Shown here in pieces: positions 646-57,784 of a DNA stretch of 58,130 bases. The stretch is from Syntrophorhabdaceae bacterium (GTDB lineage: Bacteria > Desulfobacterota > Syntrophorhabdia > Syntrophorhabdales > Syntrophorhabdaceae): the NCBI GenBank assembly GCA_028713955.1, contig JAQTNJ010000001.1, forward strand, positions 3,269 to 61,398, read 5' to 3'. The stretch's first letter is position 1; each line of letters begins with the position of its first letter. The position numbers and the translations under genes were made by a program. The notes under the pieces were generated by a model. It had not been told where the DNA came from. It worked only from the letters and a program-made list of their open reading frames with translations, and did no database searches.

Positions 646-663
646 CCCAGATACATCCTGTAG

Positions 664-814
664 GGCACTGATGTCGGGATATCCCGGAGCAAACCGTCGT
701 GAGACAAGGAAGCTTGGTCTTTTGCGAAGCAAAAGTTCCGAAGCCGAACGCGAGCGAATGGAGCCGCAGGAGCGAAATGAGCGTGTTTGCCGGGGATGTC
801 CCGACATCAGTGCC
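664..814 (+). repeat. Family-A element, copy 1: conserved core of about 120 nt between perfectly complementary 16-bp arms (664-679 / 799-814)
   Basis: The arms are GGCACTGATGTCGGGA and TCCCGACATCAGTGCC. The core (GGAGCAAACCGTCGTGAG..CTTTTGCGAAGCAAAAGTTCCGAAGCC..GAGCGTGTTTGC) recurs at 39512-39662 (same orientation) and 18171-18327 (inverted). Confidence 0.85.
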
Positions 815-894
815 TATCCTATAATGGGAAATCAGAATTAAAAAACAGGGGTGTGGTGCTGCGGTGTGGTAAAAGCGGGGAGATTGTTGCGTTG

Positions 895-8087: not shown

Positions 8088-8199
8088 GTATATCGTATTT
8101 CGTATGTCGTATATCGAAAGATGCTCGATACTCGTCGCTTGATACTCGATAATCGACGCTGATAGCTGTATGCTGACTGCTGACGGCTATCTTCTATCT
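8088..8199. repeat. 7-nt-phased array of 16 units (GTATATC GTATTTC GTATGTC GTATATC GAAAGAT GCTCGAT ACTCGTC GCTTGAT ACTCGAT AATCGAC GCTGATA GCTGTAT GCTGACT GCTGACG GCTATCT TCTATCT)
   Basis: Phase checked base by base from 8088. The leading ACAGTATATCGTAT.TCGTAT.TCGTATATCGAAA block recurs at 9361-9387 and at 44707-44738. Confidence 0.8.
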
Positions 8200-9363: not shown

Positions 9364-9440
9364 GTATATCGTATATCGTATATCGAAAAAACCATACCGG
9401 ATGCTCGATACTCATCGCTGGATGCTGGATGCTCGTCTAT
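9364..9440. repeat. 7-nt-phased array (GTATATC x3 perfect, then GAAAAAA CCATACC GGATGCT CGATACT CATCGCT GGATGCT GGATGCT CGTCTAT)
   Basis: Read directly. Same orientation and same two sub-motifs (GTATATC, GATGCTC/GATACTC) as 8088-8199. Confidence 0.8.
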
Positions 9441-16349: not shown

Positions 16350-18157
16350 CCCTTCTCCTCTCCTTTTTCCCTTTGGTATAGGGCATTATAATAGCCATCC
16401 TTTGCAAGAAGCTCCGTATGCGTTCCCTCTTCCACGATCTCACCTTGTTTCATAACGAATATCCTGTCTGCATGCTCGATGGTCGAAAGCCTGTGGGCTA
16501 TAATGACCGTCGTCCTGTTCTTTTCCACCTCTCTCAATGAATCCTGTATCACCTTTTCCGATATATTGTCGAGGGAGCTTGTAGCCTCATCGAGGATGAG
16601 GATCTCGGGATTCTTTATGACTGCCCTCGCGATGGCTATCCTCTGGCACTGACCTCCCGACAGCGTGATGCCCCTGTCGCCGACAATCGTGTCGTATCTC
16701 TCAGGAAGCTCCGCGATAAACTGGTGGGCGTTGGCGATCCTTGCCGCATCAATGATCTCCTTCTCTGTGGCATCAAGCTTGCCGATCCTGATGTTATCCC
16801 TGACAGAGGCATGGAATATGAATGTATCCTGGCTCACCATGCTCAGGTGCTTCAGCCATGAAGAGCGTGAGTAATCCTGATAATCGATCCCGTCAACAAG
16901 CACCTGTCCCGATGAGGGCCCGTACAGACGAAGCAACAGGTCGGCCAGCGTTGACTTTCCTGATCCGGACTCTCCTACAATGGCAATCGTTCTGTTTCTC
17001 GGTATGGTGATATCGATATCTTTGAGGACATTTGCCCTCGTGGGATAAGAGAATGATACATGGCTCAGTTTCATTTCACCCGTTAAACCCTGGAAATCCT
17101 TCCCGCCGTCATCCGTATCATATTCCGTGTCAGCCAGTGTCTCGTAGGTAAGACGAATACGTGGAGCAAGGCCTTTAAGCCCCATCCATTGATGCGCTAT
17201 CTCCTTGACGGAAGGCATGAGCCTCATAAGTGCACCGACATAAACAATGATGATAGGGAATATCTTCATGAAATCATCGGGCATATAGAGTTTTGCGTAG
17301 ATGATCGCGAGGATCGTACTGAGGGAACCGACCGATAATATCAGATGTGAGGAAAAATACGCCGGTGCAGTATAGGTAAATTGCTGTTTCCTTGCAACGG
17401 TCAACTCTTTCCTCAGTTTCTCAAACCAGTACCTGTAATTGTCGAAGAGTTTTATCTGCCTTATCCCTGAGATCGATTCTGAAAATAGCGTCGTGATATT
17501 CGCATACGCTATCTGCGCTCTTTGAGCGGAAGGATTGATGATCTTGTTGGAAAGCACATAGACGATCACGCTGAATGCGGCAATAACGATGTACATAAGG
17601 AGGGTAAATTTTATTGATATCGTCAGCAGAAGTACTGTTATGATCGCGATCCTGAAAAATTCCACACCGGCCTTGGGAAAGTAAAAGAACATCTCTCCCA
17701 CCGATCCCGACGCCTCCCTGCCGATATACATCAGCTCTCCGTGCTTCCTGGTGTGGAAATAGCTATACTGGTTCAGCAATATCTTCCGGAAGATCCTGTT
17801 CTGCAAATCAGTGTAAAGCTGCAGATGATACCAGAGGGCAGCGCTTTCCGATATGATCCCGAATATCCGGCTCAATATGATCAATATAAGAAGCAGTAAA
17901 CTCGCGGCGACGAGCGCATCGCTGACAGGGAGAAATGATGAAGCCGAATCGAGGTATTCAAGTATTTTCCCACCGTACTGCGCTGCCGAGCCTGTTTTTG
18001 AAAGGATCCTGCTCAGAAAGGGATAAAGGGCGCCAACGCTGAGCGTCTCCAGGAGGGCATAGATAAAAAGCAACAGGAATACAAAAAGGGCCTTGAGCCA
18101 ATAGGGCCTCAGGAACCAGACCATGATCTGAATATCACTCAGTTGTTTTTTCTGCAT
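16346..18157 (-). CDS. fused TMD-NBD ABC exporter (MsbA/PglK-like)
   Basis: Six N-terminal helices. Walker A GESGSGKST, signature LSGGQCQRIAIARA, Walker B ILILDEATS. Confidence 0.9.
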   Translation of the reverse strand: MQKKQLSDIQIMVWFLRPYWLKALFVFLLLFIYALLETLSVGALYPFLSRILSKTGSAAQYGGKILEYLDSASSFLPVSDALVAASLLLLILIILSRIFGIISESAALWYHLQLYTDLQNRIFRKILLNQYSYFHTRKHGELMYIGREASGSVGEMFFYFPKAGVEFFRIAIITVLLLTISIKFTLLMYIVIAAFSVIVYVLSNKIINPSAQRAQIAYANITTLFSESISGIRQIKLFDNYRYWFEKLRKELTVARKQQFTYTAPAYFSSHLILSVGSLSTILAIIYAKLYMPDDFMKIFPIIIVYVGALMRLMPSVKEIAHQWMGLKGLAPRIRLTYETLADTEYDTDDGGKDFQGLTGEMKLSHVSFSYPTRANVLKDIDITIPRNRTIAIVGESGSGKSTLADLLLRLYGPSSGQVLVDGIDYQDYSRSSWLKHLSMVSQDTFIFHASVRDNIRIGKLDATEKEIIDAARIANAHQFIAELPERYDTIVGDRGITLSGGQCQRIAIARAVIKNPEILILDEATSSLDNISEKVIQDSLREVEKNRTTVIIAHRLSTIEHADRIFVMKQGEIVEEGTHTELLAKDGYYNALYQREKGEEKG

Positions 18158-18170
18158 GGGACTTTATGGT

Positions 18171-18327
18171 TGAGTTTCGTGCCAGGCTTTCCCCGCAAAC
18201 ACGCTCATTCCGCTCCAGCGGCTCCATTCGCTCGCTGTTTCCGCTTCGGAACTTTTGCCTAACGGCAAAAGACCGAGCTTCCTTGCCTCACGACGGTTTG
18301 CTAAAGGAGGGCCTGGCACGAAACTCA
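18171..18327 (-). repeat. Family-A element, copy 3 (inverted): same core, with different 17-bp perfect arms (18171-18187 / 18311-18327)
   Basis: The arms are TGAGTTTCGTGCCAGGC and GCCTGGCACGAAACTCA. The reverse complement of the interior aligns to copies 1 and 2 (AGCAAACCGTCGTGAGGCAAGGAAGCTCGGTCTTTTGCC GTTA GGCAAAAGTTCCGAAGC...GAGCGTGTTTGC). Confidence 0.85.
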
Positions 18328-18401
18328 GCTATTTATCTGGAATAAACTTATTTGTCCGATGATAAACCTTTTTATTTAAATCCCCACATTGAAAAATAAG
18401 G

Positions 18402-34990: not shown

Positions 34991-35046
34991 ATCAACACTA
35001 TCAAAGCTATCAATCATTCTGCAATCTGAAATCTACAATCGCAAAT
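34991..35046. repeat. 7-nt-phased array (ATCAACA CTATCAA AGCTATC AATCATT CTGCAAT CTGAAAT CTACAAT CGCAAAT)
   Basis: Read directly; it fills the neuA / SDR spacer. Confidence 0.6.
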
Positions 35047-38089: not shown

Positions 38090-38110
38090 GTTATCTCCTC
38101 TTAACTGGGT

Positions 38111-39344: not shown

Positions 39345-39379
39345 AAATCCTAAATCCGAATTTCTAAATCCTAAACAAA
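39345..39379. repeat. 7-nt-phased array (AAATCCT AAATCCG AATTTCT AAATCCT AAACAAA)
   Basis: Read directly. Confidence 0.6.
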
Positions 39380-39419
39380 TTCAAATGTTCAAAACTGCAG
39401 GAAACATGCACCTGCTTGG

Positions 39420-39482
39420 AATATTTAATATTTGAATTTTGATATTGTTTAGTGCTTCGTGCTTAGAATTTCGATATTACGT
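39420..39482. repeat. 7-nt-phased array (AATATTT AATATTT GAATTTT GATATTG TTTAGTG CTTCGTG CTTAGAA TTTCGAT ATTACGT) 5' of family-A copy 2
   Basis: Read directly. Its 3' part resembles the array 5' of copy 1 (TTTTGATATAACGTAGAAGATAG versus TTTCGATATTACGTAAAAAATAG). Confidence 0.6.
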
Positions 39483-39511
39483 AAAAAATAGTCTACCCGG
39501 TCATATAATGA

Positions 39512-39662
39512 GAGCATGGCGCCGGGATATCCCGGAGCAAACCGTCGTGAGGCAAGGAAGCTTGGTCTTTTGCGAAGCAAAAGTTCCGAAGCCGAACGCG
39601 AGCGAATGAAGCCGCAGGAGCGGAATGAGCGTGTTTGCGGGGGATGTCCCGACGCCATGCTC
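39512..39662 (+). repeat. Family-A element, copy 2: same core, 16-bp arms with one C.A mismatch (39512-39527 / 39647-39662)
   Basis: The arms are GAGCATGGCGCCGGGA and TCCCGACGCCATGCTC. The core differs from copy 1 at only a handful of positions by eye. Confidence 0.85.
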
Positions 39663-39743
39663 ATCCTTACGGAGGAAAGTCCCGGATACATCATTTTCAC
39701 TCTTCGAGGGTGCCGTGCAAGCTAGGATTTTTTAATATTACCA

Positions 39744-41732
39744 TCACATCTCTTTTATTTCATAGTATAGATCGGTGATGCGCATATGCTCGGTCATCTT
39801 CCTCATCGTAACGTTCATATTCTGATGCCGGTACTGATCGAGCAGCACGTTCAAGGCCTTCTCTTTCTCTTCGGGAAAATAGAAGAATTCTTTGTTCTTC
39901 CTCTTTTCGAGGTCGCCCTCATACCTGTTCTTCCTCCATGCGAGGATGTCATATGCAAACTCTACTTCCCTGGTTGCACTGAAATCTATTCCGTCGCTGA
40001 AATCGAGCAATGCATGTGAAGCAAATGTAACTAAATCATCAATCTCGCTTTTCCAGGCTGGCAACATCTCTGAAGCCACAGATCCGACATACGAATCAAA
40101 ATCCCTCTTGCATTCCAGGATAACGCGCCATGTATATTTCCCGTTCATCTTTCCCACACCACCTTCCCGGATGAAGGTAAAATTATCGGGCTTGCTGTAA
40201 TAACTGCGAAGACTCTCAGGGGTATCAAACCACTCATCCCTTGCTTCATCCCGGAAATCGCTGAAGATAGAACGGACCGACTGCGGTGCATCTCCTGAAT
40301 TTTCTATAACCGCAACAATGAAATCAACGGGGTTGATCCCTTTCGAATAGATAAATTTCATCAGATCGAAATAACACCGGTAGTTCCAGAAAAACTGGAT
40401 AAGCCAGTGGACGGGACGGAAGAAAAGGATCTCTTCTTCGGACATGGTCGACGTTGACCTGATGCCCTCTTCGCATTCGAATGACAGGACATCGTCGTAT
40501 TGTCCGAACGCGCTGTCGATAAGGCGGAACTTCGTTGCAAGCTCAAATCTTTTTCGTTCTTCGGGAAGTGTCAGCTCGCTTCCATCGATGAGGAGGCAGT
40601 TATAACAGATTATATAGCTGACATCCCAGTCAAAGATCGTCCTCAGGCTTGTGAGGTGGCTCTTTTTCGTCTCCCCCGGAAGCGCCAGAATGATCTCTGT
40701 ACCTGAAACTCCACCGGCTTCGTTGACATGATCAACGATCTCCCGGAAGTATTTGCTCTCGATGTTGCTCCTCTTGATGTTTTTTAACGCCACCGGGTCA
40801 AGCGATTGTAAGGATGAGACGAGATATGTCGCCTCTCCCATTATCTCCGCGATCTCAATGCTTCTTTTTGTTTTGACCCAGTTAATCGTGCATCGACGGG
40901 GATAGTCCCTGGTTTGCTGGAGAAGCCTGATGCGTTCCGCGATCTTGATGTCCCTTTTGGAGATGCCGAAATTAGCGTCGGCAAAACAGAGGAGGTTAGT
41001 TTTCTTTACGTGATCCGCGATATAGTCCAGTTCATCCAGTACCCTGTTTATATCGTACAGTTTGACCTTGTGCTGGGACACGAGTCCCTGGGCGCAGAAG
41101 GTACAGGTAAAAGGACAGCCCCTGTTCGTTTCAATGATCGGGATCAGATCATAATCGAAGAACTTATCAAGCGTGCCGGTAAGGTAAGGTGATGGAACGC
41201 TGTCGAGGTCCTCTATTCTTTCAAGCCGTCTTCCGCATACCGGTACTCCATTGAAAAATACGCAGCCGTCTATCGCGGCCCCTTTGCTTTTTGCAATGTC
41301 CGCGCTGTTTTCGATAAACCGCCCAAGCAGGTTCGCAAAGCCTACCTCTCCTTCGTTTATAACGTAAAAATCAACCATCGGATTTCTCTTGAAAAATTCG
41401 CCGTAGCCGTCATCGGTCTGGTTGATATTGGGGCCGCCCCACACTACCATAGTCTTGTTGTCAACGGATTTTGCAAGTTTCGATACTTCATTGTTCAGGT
41501 TGGCGCTCCAGCTATAATTGCTTAAGCCAAGGATGTGCGGCGGATCGATCTTTAATCTTTTTATGAGTTCTCCGGGGTATTTAAAAAGTTCGATATCCAC
41601 CTCATTGCCAAAAACCTTTTTTGCGTATGATGCAAGAAAACCGATATTAAGCGGGAACATATAGGACCCCCCGCCGAGAAAGTTGTGGACAAGGTCACCG
41701 AGATATATATGTAACTTTTTATTGTTTTTCAT
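39744..41732 (-). CDS. B12-binding-domain radical SAM enzyme
   Basis: N-terminal B12-like domain (ILGLSNYSW...VVWGGPN). ETNRGCPFTCTFC = CxxxCxxC. 662 aa. Confidence 0.8.
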   Translation of the reverse strand: MKNNKKLHIYLGDLVHNFLGGGSYMFPLNIGFLASYAKKVFGNEVDIELFKYPGELIKRLKIDPPHILGLSNYSWSANLNNEVSKLAKSVDNKTMVVWGGPNINQTDDGYGEFFKRNPMVDFYVINEGEVGFANLLGRFIENSADIAKSKGAAIDGCVFFNGVPVCGRRLERIEDLDSVPSPYLTGTLDKFFDYDLIPIIETNRGCPFTCTFCAQGLVSQHKVKLYDINRVLDELDYIADHVKKTNLLCFADANFGISKRDIKIAERIRLLQQTRDYPRRCTINWVKTKRSIEIAEIMGEATYLVSSLQSLDPVALKNIKRSNIESKYFREIVDHVNEAGGVSGTEIILALPGETKKSHLTSLRTIFDWDVSYIICYNCLLIDGSELTLPEERKRFELATKFRLIDSAFGQYDDVLSFECEEGIRSTSTMSEEEILFFRPVHWLIQFFWNYRCYFDLMKFIYSKGINPVDFIVAVIENSGDAPQSVRSIFSDFRDEARDEWFDTPESLRSYYSKPDNFTFIREGGVGKMNGKYTWRVILECKRDFDSYVGSVASEMLPAWKSEIDDLVTFASHALLDFSDGIDFSATREVEFAYDILAWRKNRYEGDLEKRKNKEFFYFPEEKEKALNVLLDQYRHQNMNVTMRKMTEHMRITDLYYEIKEM

Positions 41733-44705: not shown

Positions 44706-44802
44706 GCAGTATATCGTATTTCGTATATCGTATATCGTAAAAGGCCTTAAAGGTCTTTTGCTGTTCACTATATACGATCGACGATATACGAAATACTGCT
44801 GC
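44706..44802. repeat. palindromic pair of GTATATC/GTATTTC heptamer arrays around a small hairpin (AAAAGGCC TTAA AGGTCTTTT)
   Basis: The left arm 44708-44737 matches the reverse complement of the right arm 44768-44797 at 25 of 30 positions. Same heptamers as at 8088 and 9364. Confidence 0.75.
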
Positions 44803-48893: not shown

Positions 48894-48921
48894 CAAGAGC
48901 TGAGAGCTAAGAGCAGAGAGT
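48894..48921. repeat. heptamer array CAAGAGC TGAGAGC TAAGAGC AGAGAGT; left arm of a 25-bp imperfect inverted repeat
   Basis: 48897-48921 matches the reverse complement of 49106-49130 at 21 of 25 positions. Confidence 0.7.
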
Positions 48922-50554: not shown

Positions 50555-51703
50555 TTATTGTAAAACAGAAAATAAGATATCAGCTATTTTTTCTGATGCC
50601 TTGCCGTCTCCATACGGGTTCGCAGATCTCGACATCCTCATGTATACATCCTTGTCCTCTATCAGTTCCAACGTACCATTGATGATATTCTTTTCATTGG
50701 TTCCCACCATCTTCACGACGCCGGCTTCAATCCCTTCAGGTCTCTCAGTGGTGTTCCTCATCACAAGAACCGGCTTGCCCAGGGAGGGCGCCTCTTCCTG
50801 GATACCGCCTGAGTCGGTCAGGATGAGAAAGGACCTGCTCATCAAAAAGACAAACTCTTCATATCCGAGGGGTTCGATAAGACAAACGTTCTTCACTTTA
50901 CCCAGGATTCTTTTTACAGGTCTTTGCACGTTCGGATTCAGGTGAACAGGGTATACTACTATCACGTCTTTCCTTTGTTCTGCTATCTTTCGCAACGCTT
51001 TACATATATTTTCAAAACCTTCCCCAAAGTTTTCCCGCCTGTGGCCGGTGACTAAGATCAGTTTCAAGTTTTTAGTTGAAAGTTCAAGGTCATACTTCTT
51101 CCTGAAAAATTCTTCAAAAAATCTTTTCCTGACCCCTGACCCCTGACCACTGACCACTTCCATAAGCGCGTCTATCACCGTATTTCCGGTTACCCATACC
51201 CTGTCCTCCGGGATACCTTCTTTTAACAGGTTTGATCTGCTCCACTGCGTTGGGGCAAAATGGTAATCGGCCAACACGCTTAAAAGGTGCCTGTTTATTT
51301 CCTCCGGAAATGGGCTGTACTTGTTATATGTCCTGAGCCCTGCCTCAATGTGACCGATAGGGACTTTCGTATAAAATGCCGCAAGCCCTGCAACGAAAGC
51401 GGTTGTAGTATCACCCTGTACCAGTATTGCATCCGGCCGTACTGTCCCCAGAACATCTTTGAGACCTTTGAGGGTCTTTTCTGTTATATCAAATAAATCC
51501 TGATCTTTCTTCATGATGTTCAGATCATAATCAGGGGAGATCTTGAAAATCGAAAGCACCTGATCGAGCATATGCCTGTGCTGCGCCGTAACACAGACAA
51601 TCGTAGCAAATCTGGATTTATGCTCTTCGAGCTTATTGATCACCGGCGCCATCTTTATGGCTTCCGGCCTTGTGCCCAGGACTACCAACACCTTTTTTTT
51701 CAT
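50555..51703 (-). CDS. wecB: non-hydrolysing UDP-N-acetylglucosamine 2-epimerase
   Basis: VLVVLGTRPEAIKMAPV, HIEAGLRT, VTGHRRENFG. The start is moved to the ATG at 51703, because the track ORF overlaps the upstream gene. Confidence 0.85.
   Translation of the reverse strand: MKKKVLVVLGTRPEAIKMAPVINKLEEHKSRFATIVCVTAQHRHMLDQVLSIFKISPDYDLNIMKKDQDLFDITEKTLKGLKDVLGTVRPDAILVQGDTTTAFVAGLAAFYTKVPIGHIEAGLRTYNKYSPFPEEINRHLLSVLADYHFAPTQWSRSNLLKEGIPEDRVWVTGNTVIDALMEVVSGQGSGVRKRFFEEFFRKKYDLELSTKNLKLILVTGHRRENFGEGFENICKALRKIAEQRKDVIVVYPVHLNPNVQRPVKRILGKVKNVCLIEPLGYEEFVFLMSRSFLILTDSGGIQEEAPSLGKPVLVMRNTTERPEGIEAGVVKMVGTNEKNIINGTLELIEDKDVYMRMSRSANPYGDGKASEKIADILFSVLQ
51128..51155. repeat. tandem heptamer inside wecB: CCTGACC x3 perfect plus ACTGACC
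   Basis: Read base by base. It encodes VVSGQGSGVR in a variable loop after TGNTVIDAL. Confidence 0.8.
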
Positions 51704-57763: not shown

Positions 57764-57784
57764 ATAAGGTAAAAGGTGAAAGGT
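57764..57784. repeat. three phased heptamers ATAAGGT AAAAGGT GAAAGGT
   Basis: Read directly in the divergent spacer. Confidence 0.5.

What the first reader, a model, noticed from the sequence alone, without database searches (positions are those of the whole stretch)
18171..18327. The inverted copy carries compensatory changes and frame-breaking indels, so the element behaves as structure and not as a gene
These comparisons use the reverse complement of copy 3 against copies 1 and 2.
- The inner hairpin CTTTTGC-GAA-GCAAAAG becomes CTTTTGCC-GTTA-GGCAAAAG. The stem is extended by a matched C/G pair and the loop is changed.
- GCTTGG...CCGAAGC becomes GCTCGG...CCGAAGC. That turns a T.G (U.G) wobble into C-G, which only makes sense on the strand given as + for copies 1 and 2.
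- GCAAAC...GTTTGC is retained next to the arms.
- The segment after CCGAAGC is 6 nt (CGAACG) in copies 1 and 2 and 8 nt (GGAAACAG) in copy 3. This breaks every reading frame shared with the other copies.

The arginine-rich ORFs that the six-frame track draws through the repeats therefore cannot be conserved proteins.
Basis: seen in the sequence. Interest (0 to 1): 0.7.

Follow-up and report, generated by a model that had tools for sequence, protein, structure and literature searches.

The report
Mobile hairpin repeat, not a gene
The inverted repeat at 18171-18327 is one copy of an apparently undescribed family of about 190-bp non-coding, hairpin-forming mobile repeats (MITE-like) in Syntrophorhabdaceae bacteria, so it is a new example of a known kind of element rather than a gene or a new mechanism.

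Summary
All four sequence observations are correct, and the reading "structure, not gene" holds. The window has three copies of a roughly 105-nt core that are 92-97% identical. Each core sits inside its own long stem, whose arms are only 40-55% alike between copy 3 and the others yet stay complementary.

I collected about 125 further copies from Syntrophorhabdaceae MAGs, S. aromaticivorans UI and metagenomes.
- **Structure:** 92.9% of cells pair over 44 pairs. 26 pairs carry double changes, against 15.3±2.1 in shuffles (0/500).
- **Strand:** G·U outnumbers A·C 266 to 93.
- **Coding:** indels break every reading frame.

- **Ends:** it has inverted termini, CCCGGAT…ATCCGGG.
- **Target duplication:** 5-bp AT-rich flanking direct repeats match at ≥4/5 positions in 61% of copies, against 24.5% in controls.
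- **Insertion polymorphism:** filled and empty sites occur between related genomes.
- **Location:** copies prefer gene 3' ends.

It has no Rfam, plasmid, phage or literature match. No partner transposase was found and no transcript is shown. I file it as a new member of a known kind (bcr1-, ERIC- or Correia-like). The core is unusually well conserved and modular. Interest is moderate to low.

The parts
18171..18327 (-). Copy 3 as reported. This is the long imperfect hairpin, with outer stem TGAGTTTCGTGCCAGGC / GCCTGGCACGAAACTCA enclosing the conserved core.
   Evidence: RNA fold is -74.5 kcal/mol on the element strand (z = -6.1) and -68.3 on the other strand.
18161..18342 (-). Copy 3, probable full extent by homology to the family. 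The left terminus TTCCAGAT lies at 18342-18335. The right terminus is degenerate or truncated and stops a few bases before the ATG (18157-18155) of the 603-aa ABC-transporter ORF.
   Evidence: Family alignments.
18195..18301 (-). Copy 3 conserved core, running from GCAAAC to GTTTGC.
   Evidence: 94-95 of 102 aligned positions identical to copies 1 and 2.
18252..18271 (-). Inner hairpin CTTTTGCC-GTTA-GGCAAAAG. The stem is one pair longer and the loop differs from copies 1 and 2.
   Evidence: the extra pair is a standard pair in 10/10 copies that have it.
18235..18242 (-). The 8-nt variant segment GGAAACAG, which is CGAACG in copies 1 and 2. It shifts every frame. The same variant recurs in L001, L015, L054, L119 and L132.
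646..837 (+). Copy 1, full element. Left terminus is CCCAGAT and the right terminus is degenerate (ATCAGAA). The core is 689-790.
   Evidence: (-79.1 kcal/mol, z = -8.4).
39496..39685 (+). Copy 2, full element. Termini are CCCGGTC...GTCCCGG. The core is 39537-39638.
39478..39722 (+). A 245-bp block (copy 2 plus its conserved 'A-type' context) that is absent from the orthologous site of a related genome. It is flanked by TA on both sides.
   Evidence: L027 reads TTCGATAT|TAGGATTT with nothing in between.
38103..38107 (.). Empty site in the window. The related genome (L027 1430-1923) carries a block of about 490 bp here that contains a copy of the element.

Best explanation
Copy 3 is one member of a dispersed family of about 190-bp non-coding repeats found in Syntrophorhabdaceae and related anaerobes from sediments and digesters.

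**Anatomy.** Each element has short inverted termini (CCCGGAT...ATCCGGG) and two arms of 45-50 nt that pair into a long stem. The stem encloses a core of about 105 nt, closed by GCAAAC/GTTTGC, that contains further small helices.

**Shown.**
- The family is multi-copy and intergenic, and it cannot encode a conserved protein.
- Its stems are kept by compensatory change.
- Copies are flanked by 5-bp AT-rich direct repeats.
- Related genomes differ in whether a site is filled.

**Inferred.**
- The element is a MITE-like non-autonomous transposon, moved in trans by an unidentified transposase that makes 5-bp staggered cuts at AT-rich sites. These sites often lie at or over stop codons.
- The structure is selected on one strand, because G·U is tolerated and A·C is avoided. 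The simplest reading is selection on the RNA made when the element is transcribed with or towards its neighbours.
- As RNA it would act, at most, as a large stem-loop at gene ends, affecting termination, or the stability or processing of mRNA 3' ends.

In the window, copy 3 looks like a decayed copy. Its right terminus is degenerate and it abuts the start codon of an ABC-transporter gene.
For: **Family size and range.**
- 64 true copies came from genome contigs, almost all Syntrophorhabdaceae or 'Deltaproteobacteria' MAGs plus S. aromaticivorans UI. One MAG holds up to 13 exact-pattern copies.
- About 67 further distinct copies came from metagenomes.

**Structure.** See: 92.9% of cells paired, and 26 pairs with double changes against 15.3±2.1 in shuffles (0/500). 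Arm pairs switch between types, for example U-A 30, C-G 20 and U-G 6 at one position.

**Strand.**
- G·U versus A·C is 266:93, and the + strand is more stable in 91/95 copies.
- The ratio is 2.5-3.8 whatever the orientation to neighbouring genes.

**Non-coding.**

**Target duplication.** Of 38 copies with recognisable termini, 14 have 5/5 and 9 have 4/5 matching flanking bases (TTTAA, TTTAT, ATTAT, TTAAT, ATGAA...). That is 61% with at least 4/5, against 24.5% when left and right flanks are paired at random.

**Insertion polymorphism.**
- Window 39478-39722 is filled where L027 is empty. Window 38103-38107 is empty where L027 is filled.
- L046 is filled where L165 is empty.
- The spacers of copies 1 and 3 are occupied in related genomes by copies in the opposite orientation and at different positions.

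**Location (143 copies).**
- Copies between convergent genes number 34, against 12 between divergent genes (p = 0.0016).
- A gene 3' end faces the element's right end 82 times, against 31 for a 5' end.

**No functional link to neighbours.** Flanking genes are functionally unrelated.

**Deletion derivatives.** Arms-only copies still carry flanking repeats.

**Precedent.** Precedent is bcr1: about 155 bp, 5-bp direct repeats, transcribed, with compensatory changes that keep an RNA structure (PMC3184786).
Against: - **No partner.** No autonomous partner with matching termini was found in about 1 Mb of held loci, nor in plasmid or phage collections.
- **Conservation pattern.** The core is more conserved than the terminal arms, the reverse of a typical MITE. 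This suggests the core itself is under selection.
- **A-type copies.** These include window copies 1 and 2. They lack the 5-bp duplication, sit in a larger conserved context, and the 245-bp block is flanked only by TA. The mobile unit is therefore not uniform.
- **Imperfect duplications.** Exact target duplications are seen in only a minority of copies.
- **No expression signal.** No promoter or intrinsic terminator signal is associated with the element, and no expression data exist.
- **Orientation conflict.** Most neighbouring genes would read through the element in antisense (82 against 31), while the G·U signature favours the sense strand. The co-transcription story is therefore not straightforward.
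- **Non-independence.** Copies are related by descent, so shuffle statistics overstate independence.
Confidence: 0.6

Rival explanations
1. The core is a functional structured non-coding RNA that merely rides on, or has been captured by, a mobile hairpin. It could be a ribozyme, a protein-binding RNA, or an RNA that assists its own transposase. Its sequence conservation would reflect RNA function rather than recent transposition.
For: - The core is far better conserved than the arms.
- Core helices covary: GGC:GCC changes to GAC:GUC, AGC:GCU and GUC:GAC, and 188:196 is C-G 85 and U-A 7.
- Tandem G·A positions are replaced by Watson-Crick pairs in a 13-copy variant, GCGA-AUG-GAGC versus GCGA-AGG-UCGC.
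- G·U versus A·C in the core is 95:14.
- Unpaired stretches are nearly invariant.
- A separate covarying motif of about 80 nt is tolerated at the tip of one core hairpin.
Against: - No Rfam family matches, even at permissive thresholds.
- No promoter or terminator is evident.
- Copy number is high and orientation to neighbours varies.
- The core can be deleted or replaced by unrelated palindromic filler while the arms persist.
- Several candidate core helices are mutually exclusive, and the recurrent 8-nt variant breaks one of them.
- There are no expression data.
Confidence: 0.2
2. The element is a purely DNA-level palindromic repeat, REP/BIME-like. It would act as a cruciform or a binding site for a host protein or a RAYT-type transposase, with no RNA role. 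Arm covariation would then simply reflect both ends being recognised by one protein.
For: - The arms are inverted repeats that must co-evolve if one protein binds both ends.
- Four GAGC motifs recur at a spacing of about 9-10 nt in the 3' half of the core (GAGCGAATG GAGCCGCTG GAGCGGAATG AGCG). That is one helical turn, as in protein-binding arrays (seen in the sequence).
- The location at gene ends resembles that of REPs.
Against: - A symmetric DNA duplex requirement predicts equal G·T and A·C departures. The observed ratio is 266:93, and it is independent of local orientation.
- Size (190 bp) and the 5-bp flanking duplications do not fit REP/REPIN elements.
- Core pairs covary between positions that are not equivalent in the GAGC repeat.
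Confidence: 0.12
3. The repeats are ordinary factor-independent terminators, or gene-end hairpins, that were duplicated along with their surroundings.
For: - Copies lie preferentially at gene 3' ends.
- The stem is very stable.
- The right flank often begins TTTA.
Against: - The terminator scan finds no stem plus T-run at the element ends.
- Flanks of different copies are unrelated.
- Orientation is mixed.
- A conserved branched core of about 105 nt is not needed for termination.
- Filled and empty sites show insertion of the element alone.
Confidence: 0.05
4. The repeats encode a small arginine-rich peptide.
For: ORFs of 51-83 aa run through all three window copies. The minus-sense frames are stop-free in about 90% of copies.
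Against: - Indels of 1, 2 and 3 nt occur at four places, and core length mod 3 is 55/29/11.
- Copy 3 changes frame mid-ORF.
- Start codons lie in the variable arms.
- The scarcity of stops follows from the purine-rich composition.
Confidence: 0.01

Closest known systems
bcr1 (Bacillus cereus group repeat, group A)
   Same: It is a small (about 155 bp) non-coding dispersed repeat flanked by 5-bp direct repeats (TTTAT motif), with a non-conserved genomic distribution between related strains. Compensatory base changes maintain a folded RNA-level structure (PMC3184786; PMC6542083).
   Different: - The lineage is different (Firmicutes), and no sequence relationship was tested or is expected.
- bcr1 folds as a cruciform-like pair of stem-loops, whereas this element is one long stem with a branched core.
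- bcr1 is known to be transcribed. Transcription of this element is not shown.
ERIC / Correia (CREE, nemis) elements
   Same: These are MITE-like intergenic repeats of 100-160 bp with long terminal inverted repeats that fold as RNA hairpins. They sit at gene ends and can be co-transcribed. Internal modules can be inserted or deleted (PMC3184786).
   Different: - They duplicate TA rather than 5 bp.
- Their sequences are unrelated.
- Their termini are the conserved part, whereas here the core is the most conserved part.
REP / REPIN elements mobilised by RAYT transposases
   Same: They are extragenic palindromes, abundant and located at gene ends. Their hairpins are kept by compensatory change.
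   Different: - REPs are 20-40 bp (REPINs about 100 bp).
- They lack target duplications and carry GTAG/CGTC head motifs (PMC3733652, listed).
- This element is about 190 bp, with 5-bp flanking repeats and a large non-palindromic core.
Tn3-derived inverted-repeat miniature elements (TIMEs)
   Same: They are non-autonomous miniature elements. A 5-bp AT-rich target duplication is typical of the Tn3 family (from my own knowledge; the paper is listed).
   Different: Tn3-family ends are about 38 bp and begin GGGG, whereas this element begins CCCGGAT. No Tn3-type partner was seen. This is a lead from memory, not a test.

Membership tests
MITE (miniature inverted-repeat transposable element) | Small, non-coding | tested here: met
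   The element is about 190 bp and no frame is conserved.
MITE (miniature inverted-repeat transposable element) | Terminal inverted repeats | tested here: met
   Termini CCCGGAT...ATCCGGG, and complementary arms of 45-50 nt.
MITE (miniature inverted-repeat transposable element) | Target-site duplication flanking the copies | tested here: met
   5-nt flanks match at 4 or more of 5 positions in 23/38 copies (61%), against 24.5% for shuffled flank pairs. Perfect matches are 14/38, against 4.8%. This is not seen for the 'A-type' copies, which include window copies 1 and 2.
MITE (miniature inverted-repeat transposable element) | Many dispersed copies with unrelated flanks, and insertion polymorphism between related genomes | tested here: met
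MITE (miniature inverted-repeat transposable element) | A cognate autonomous IS or transposon with the same termini | tested here: inconclusive
   None was found in the held loci or in plasmids and phages. Whole genomes could not be scanned.
REP / REPIN | A 20-40 bp palindrome (or doublet) with no target duplication and an associated RAYT gene | tested here: not met
   Size is about 190 bp and 5-bp flanking repeats are present. The RAYT association was not testable.
IS200/IS605-derived palindrome-associated elements | No target duplication, with insertion next to a fixed 4-5 nt target | tested here: not met
   The flanking repeats vary in sequence and are duplicated on both sides.
Any Rfam RNA family (riboswitch, ribozyme, sRNA, OMEGA/HEARO-type RNAs) | A match to the family covariance model | tested here: not met
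   There was no hit at gathering score in the window or in 17 loci. At E<=10 or E<=5 only chance hits appeared.
Intrinsic (Rho-independent) terminator | A G+C-rich stem followed by a T-run | tested here: not met
   The scans found no terminator-like site at the ends of the three copies.
Protein-coding small ORF | One reading frame preserved across copies | tested here: not met
   Core length mod 3 is 55/29/11, and indels occur at four sites.
bcr1-type structured repeats | Sequence homology to bcr1, and restriction to the B. cereus group | not tested
   No bcr1 sequence was compared. The resemblance is in kind only.

The most novel reading that the evidence does not exclude
The core of about 105 nt may be a genuine structured RNA that spreads as the cargo of a miniature transposon. 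The same may hold for the separate three-hairpin motif of about 80 nt that can nest in it and also occurs alone. That would make it a mobile non-coding RNA gene with a trans or cis function of its own, such as a ribozyme, a protein sponge, or an RNA cofactor for its mobilising enzyme. It would not be a passive hairpin.
Probability: 0.12. Interest if true: 0.7.

Novelty: new member of a known kind. Interest (0 to 1): 0.35.

Why it matters
- **Annotation.** It removes spurious arginine-rich ORFs from annotation. It also explains recurrent assembly and annotation oddities in the intergenic regions of Syntrophorhabdaceae, key syntrophic degraders of aromatic compounds in digesters.
- **A marker.** It supplies a family-specific repeat that can serve as a marker of recent genome change, since related species differ at nearly every site examined.
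- **A test case.** The conserved branched core, the strand-specific wobble signature and the orientation bias at gene ends allow a clean test. The question is whether bacterial MITEs are selected as RNA, a question that bcr1, ERIC and Correia elements leave only partly answered.

If the core proves to be a functional RNA, it would be an example of an RNA gene spread by a DNA transposon.

Tried and rejected
- **Rfam.** I ran five searches: the window at gathering score, copy 3 at E<=10, and 8+3+9 related loci that included the long form. Nothing turned up beyond one unrelated tRNA gene and chance hits.
- **Viral contigs.** A pattern scan returned 0 hits.
- **Plasmids and phages.** blastn returned 0 hits.
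- **Promoters and terminators.** Scans around all three copies found nothing associated with the element.
- **Partner IS.** I searched the held loci for an autonomous partner with the same termini. Only mini-derivatives and chance pairs appeared.
- **Literature.** Searches for Syntrophorhabdus repeats or ncRNAs, and for MITEs with structured RNA, gave no description of this family.
- **Coding hypothesis.** Rejected.
- **Host-hairpin hypothesis.** My first idea was that the variable outer stems are host terminators into whose loops a 110-nt element inserts. I rejected it because the arms of all copies are homologous to one another and end in shared termini with flanking duplications.
- **Mutation-bias hypothesis.** I considered whether the G·U excess is a mutation bias caused by local transcription. 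I rejected it because the ratio does not flip with orientation.
- **Fold of the core's 3' half.** I could not settle this. Three sets of helices are mutually exclusive, and each has some support: unit1-unit2, unit2-unit3 and CCGC/GCGG.
- **Failed steps.** A global MAFFT alignment of filled against empty sites misplaced the short sequence and was redone with a gap-tolerant aligner. One script call did nothing.

Full report
**1. The observation**

The segment 18171-18327 is bounded by a perfect 17-nt inverted repeat.

The repeat search finds three related elements in the window: 675-805 and 39523-39653 on the + strand, and 18191-18326 in inverted orientation.

After reverse-complementing copy 3, the three align over a core of about 105 nt.
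- Copies 1 and 2 share 99/102 positions.
- Copy 3 shares 94-95/102 with them, plus five indel positions.

- The inner hairpin is lengthened by a C-G pair and has a new loop.
- There is a T-to-C change opposite an unchanged G.
- GCAAAC/GTTTGC is retained.
- A 6-nt segment is replaced by 8 nt.

Each copy folds into a very stable rod, at -74 to -79 kcal/mol with z = -6.1 to -8.4.

Between copy 3 and the others the arms outside the core are only 9-12 of 22-23 positions identical, yet each copy's own arms pair almost perfectly.

**2. Related sequences**

Rfam has no match.

A two-anchor pattern scan of species-representative genomes returned 66 loci, of which 64 are true copies. Nearly all come from Syntrophorhabdaceae or unclassified 'Deltaproteobacteria' MAGs from digesters and sediments, plus one from the isolate Syntrophorhabdus aromaticivorans UI. 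A single MAG holds up to 13 copies.

A scan of metagenome contigs, anchored only on the inner hairpin, added about 67 distinct and much more divergent copies. It also returned about 25 unrelated chance hits in a human-gut coding gene.

The window itself is about 84% identical to contigs of one of these MAGs over flanking genes. It therefore comes from a Syntrophorhabdaceae genome.

**3. Anatomy of the family**

In register, the full element is about 190 bp and has three layers.
- **Termini:** CCCGGAT... on the left and ...ATCCGGG on the right.
- **Arms:** 45-50 nt each, forming a long imperfect stem.
- **Core:** closed by GCAAAC/GTTTGC.

Within the core, covariation supports several helices.
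- A helix GGC:GCC, next to a tandem G·A, pairs GTGAGGC with GCCGAAC.
- A helix YGG:CCG lies below the invariant CUUUUGC hairpin.
- The GAGC-repeat region holds two or three small helices that exclude one another.

The family is modular.
- Arms-only copies exist: L038:4780-4870 and L041:1455-1520.
- Some copies have unrelated palindromic filler in place of the core interior: L046, L060 and L109.
- A 'long form' carries an extra three-hairpin motif of about 80 nt at the tip of one core hairpin. The same motif also occurs alone elsewhere.

**4. Structure versus gene**

*Pairing on 95 distinct copies, using a 44-pair model.*

| Measure | Observed | Shuffled control |
|---|---|---|
| Cells forming a standard pair | 92.9% | 89.6±0.2% |
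| Pairs changed on both sides | 26 | 15.3±2.1 |
| Cells changed on both sides | 136 | 36 |

- No shuffle out of 500 reached any observed value.
- Sliding the partners by 1-3 columns drops pairing to 30-47%.

*Strand.*
- G·U cells outnumber A·C cells 266 to 93, and 95 to 14 in the core.
- The element strand folds more stably than its complement in 91/95 copies.
- The G·U:A·C ratio is 2.5-3.8 whether neighbouring genes would transcribe the element in sense or antisense. It is therefore a property of the element's own strand and not a local mutation bias.

*Coding.*
- Core lengths range from 99 to 107 nt, and length mod 3 is 55/29/11.
- The hairpin loop is 3, 4 or 6 nt, and two other segments vary by 1-2 nt.
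- The three window ORFs share ...ANRREARKLGLL...SSEAE and then part ways.

- The 8-nt variant is not compensatory. In my model it breaks two pairs in copy 3, and copy 1 has an uncompensated A·C in the same helix.

**5. It is mobile**

*Flanking duplications.* In 38 copies whose termini can be recognised, the five bases outside the left terminus repeat outside the right terminus.
- The match is perfect in 14 copies and 4/5 in 9 copies.
- Typical sequences are TTTAA, TTTAT, ATTAT, TTAAT, CTTAT and ATGAA.
- A match of at least 4/5 occurs in 61% of copies. It occurs in 24.5% when flanks of different copies are paired.

*Filled and empty sites in orthologous loci.*
- Window 39478-39722 (copy 2 with its context) is missing from L027, which reads straight through TTCGATAT|TAGGATTT.
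- L027 has a block of about 490 bp containing an element where the window has only 38103-38107.
- L046 is filled where L165 is empty.
- The spacers holding copies 1 and 3 are occupied in related genomes (L025, L058, L131) by copies in the opposite orientation and at different positions. These are independent insertions.

*Unresolved.*
- No autonomous partner was found in the sequence I hold or in plasmid and phage collections.
- 'A-type' copies, which include window copies 1 and 2, sit in a larger conserved context. That context is itself inserted into an AT-rich palindromic heptamer-array repeat. These copies lack the 5-bp duplication, so more than one mobile unit or nesting event is involved.

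**6. Where it sits**

I used crude ORF calls around 143 copies.
- 34 copies lie between convergent genes and 12 between divergent genes (p = 0.0016).
- Between tandem genes, the element is antisense 26 times and sense 12 times (p = 0.034).
- A gene 3' end faces the element's right end 82 times, against 31 for a 5' end. It is often within a few bases, so the duplicated AT-rich target overlaps the stop codon.

In the window all long ORFs are on the - strand. Copies 1 and 2 are antisense to them and copy 3 is sense.

The flanking genes are functionally unrelated to one another: an ABC transporter, a methyltransferase, an epimerase, an Fe-alcohol dehydrogenase and a radical-SAM protein.

No promoter-like or terminator-like signals accompany the copies.

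**7. Mechanism**

*Shown:* the element is a non-coding, multi-copy, insertion-polymorphic repeat whose stems are maintained by compensatory change, with a strand-specific wobble signature.

*Inferred:*
- Transposition occurs in trans by an enzyme that makes 5-bp staggered cuts at AT-rich sites.
- Selection on structure acts on a single strand, most simply on RNA.
- Any host-level effect is that of a large stem-loop at gene ends.

One tension remains. Most neighbouring genes would transcribe the antisense strand, while the wobble signature favours the sense strand. Three readings are open: the element is transcribed on its own, the orientation bias reflects counter-selection of the sense orientation in mRNAs, or it reflects an asymmetric target preference (TTTAN on the element strand). 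I cannot decide between these.

**8. Comparison with what is known**

The closest kind is the structured MITE-like repeat.
- **bcr1 of the Bacillus cereus group:** about 155 bp, 5-bp direct repeats, transcribed, with compensatory changes that keep an RNA structure (PMC3184786; PMC6542083).
- **ERIC and Correia elements:** these duplicate TA.

The element is not a REP/REPIN, because both size and target duplication differ. It is not an IS200/IS605-type palindromic element, because its duplications vary in sequence. It matches no Rfam family.

I found no description of this family in the literature searches.

It differs from typical MITEs in that the core is conserved far more strongly than the terminal arms, and in its modular, nested construction.

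**9. Verdict**

The object is a new member of a known kind, a MITE-like structured intergenic repeat specific to Syntrophorhabdaceae and relatives.

Interest is moderate to low (0.35). The one reading that would raise it is that the core is a functional RNA spread by a DNA transposon. I give that about 12%.

Noticed in passing
L098:177-285, L132:1533-1641, L138:686-794, L165:2901-3009(-), L177:12379-12487 (inside elements); L006:791-899, L012:704-812(-), L028:1285-1393, L036:1968-2076(-), L090:1324-1432, L144:2822-2930, L177:13630-13738(-) (alone): This is a second conserved motif of about 80 nt with three hairpins, ...GAGAAGGGGAGGCUC[variable stem]GGAGGGGGCGACGCAAGCCCCGGUAAUAG.
- The middle stem covaries strongly: five consecutive pairs carry double changes in 16 sequences.
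- Some copies have a longer insert at its tip.
- The motif occurs alone in intergenic DNA and also nested at one fixed point of the element's core.
- It has no Rfam match and is not present in the window.
   Followed up: partly
window 8088-8156, 9364-9433, 35018-35044, 39345-39375, 39420-39446, 44709-44739 with 44770-44796, 48896-48920, 51128-51155, 57766-57784: Intergenic DNA is rich in short imperfect arrays of period 7, such as GTATATC, GATACTC, AAATCCT, TCTGCAA and CCTGACC.
- Some arrays form inverted pairs. For example, (GTATATC)n at 44709 faces (ATATACG)n at 44770.
- The same kind of heptamer palindrome flanks copies 1 and 2.
- It also replaces the core in L046, L060 and L109.
   Followed up: partly
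window 39345-39477 and 39723-39745; L165:9500-9690; L027:3245-3345: An AT-rich palindromic repeat built of heptamers hosts the 'A-type' copies. Its sequence is ...CTAAATCCTAAACAAAT..TTCAAAAT...GTTTTGAACATTTGATATTTGAATTTTGATATTGTTTAGGATTTGGTGCTTAGAAATT. L165 and L027 show it without the insertion.
   Followed up: partly
L038:4780-4870 (-), L041:1455-1520 (+): These are arms-only miniature versions of the element (60-80 nt) with no core, still flanked by AT-rich direct repeats. They are consistent with deletion between the self-complementary GGGATATCCC / GGGATGTCCC segments of the two arms.
   Followed up: partly
L089:1-215, L015:1990-2060, L023:60-125, L111:1186-1260: A further arm-like module, TTGCTCGAGACTNACCTCGCAATTAAACCG, is inserted between the left arm and the core. 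In L089 its complement lies inside the 3' part of the core rather than next to it. A simple nested insertion does not explain this.
   Followed up: no
window 18155-18165 and L058:540-560: Copy 3 ends only a few bases before the ATG (18157-18155, - strand) of the ABC-transporter ORF. No Shine-Dalgarno-like sequence lies between them. The ortholog in L058 has the same ...TCCCATG junction with a different upstream sequence.
   Followed up: no
window 1-58130: Every long ORF in the 58-kb window (about 45 genes) is on the - strand. They include epimerase, methyltransferase, radical-SAM/B12, Fe-ADH and ABC-transporter genes. This is a long one-directional array that may be a polysaccharide or secondary-metabolite cluster.
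   Followed up: no
L056 (Candidatus Shapirobacteria MAG), L057 (Dehalococcoidaceae MAG), L051 and L006 (Syntrophus-labelled MAGs): A few copies lie on short contigs binned to unrelated phyla. This more likely reflects mis-binning of Syntrophorhabdaceae contigs than horizontal spread, but I did not check it.
   Followed up: no
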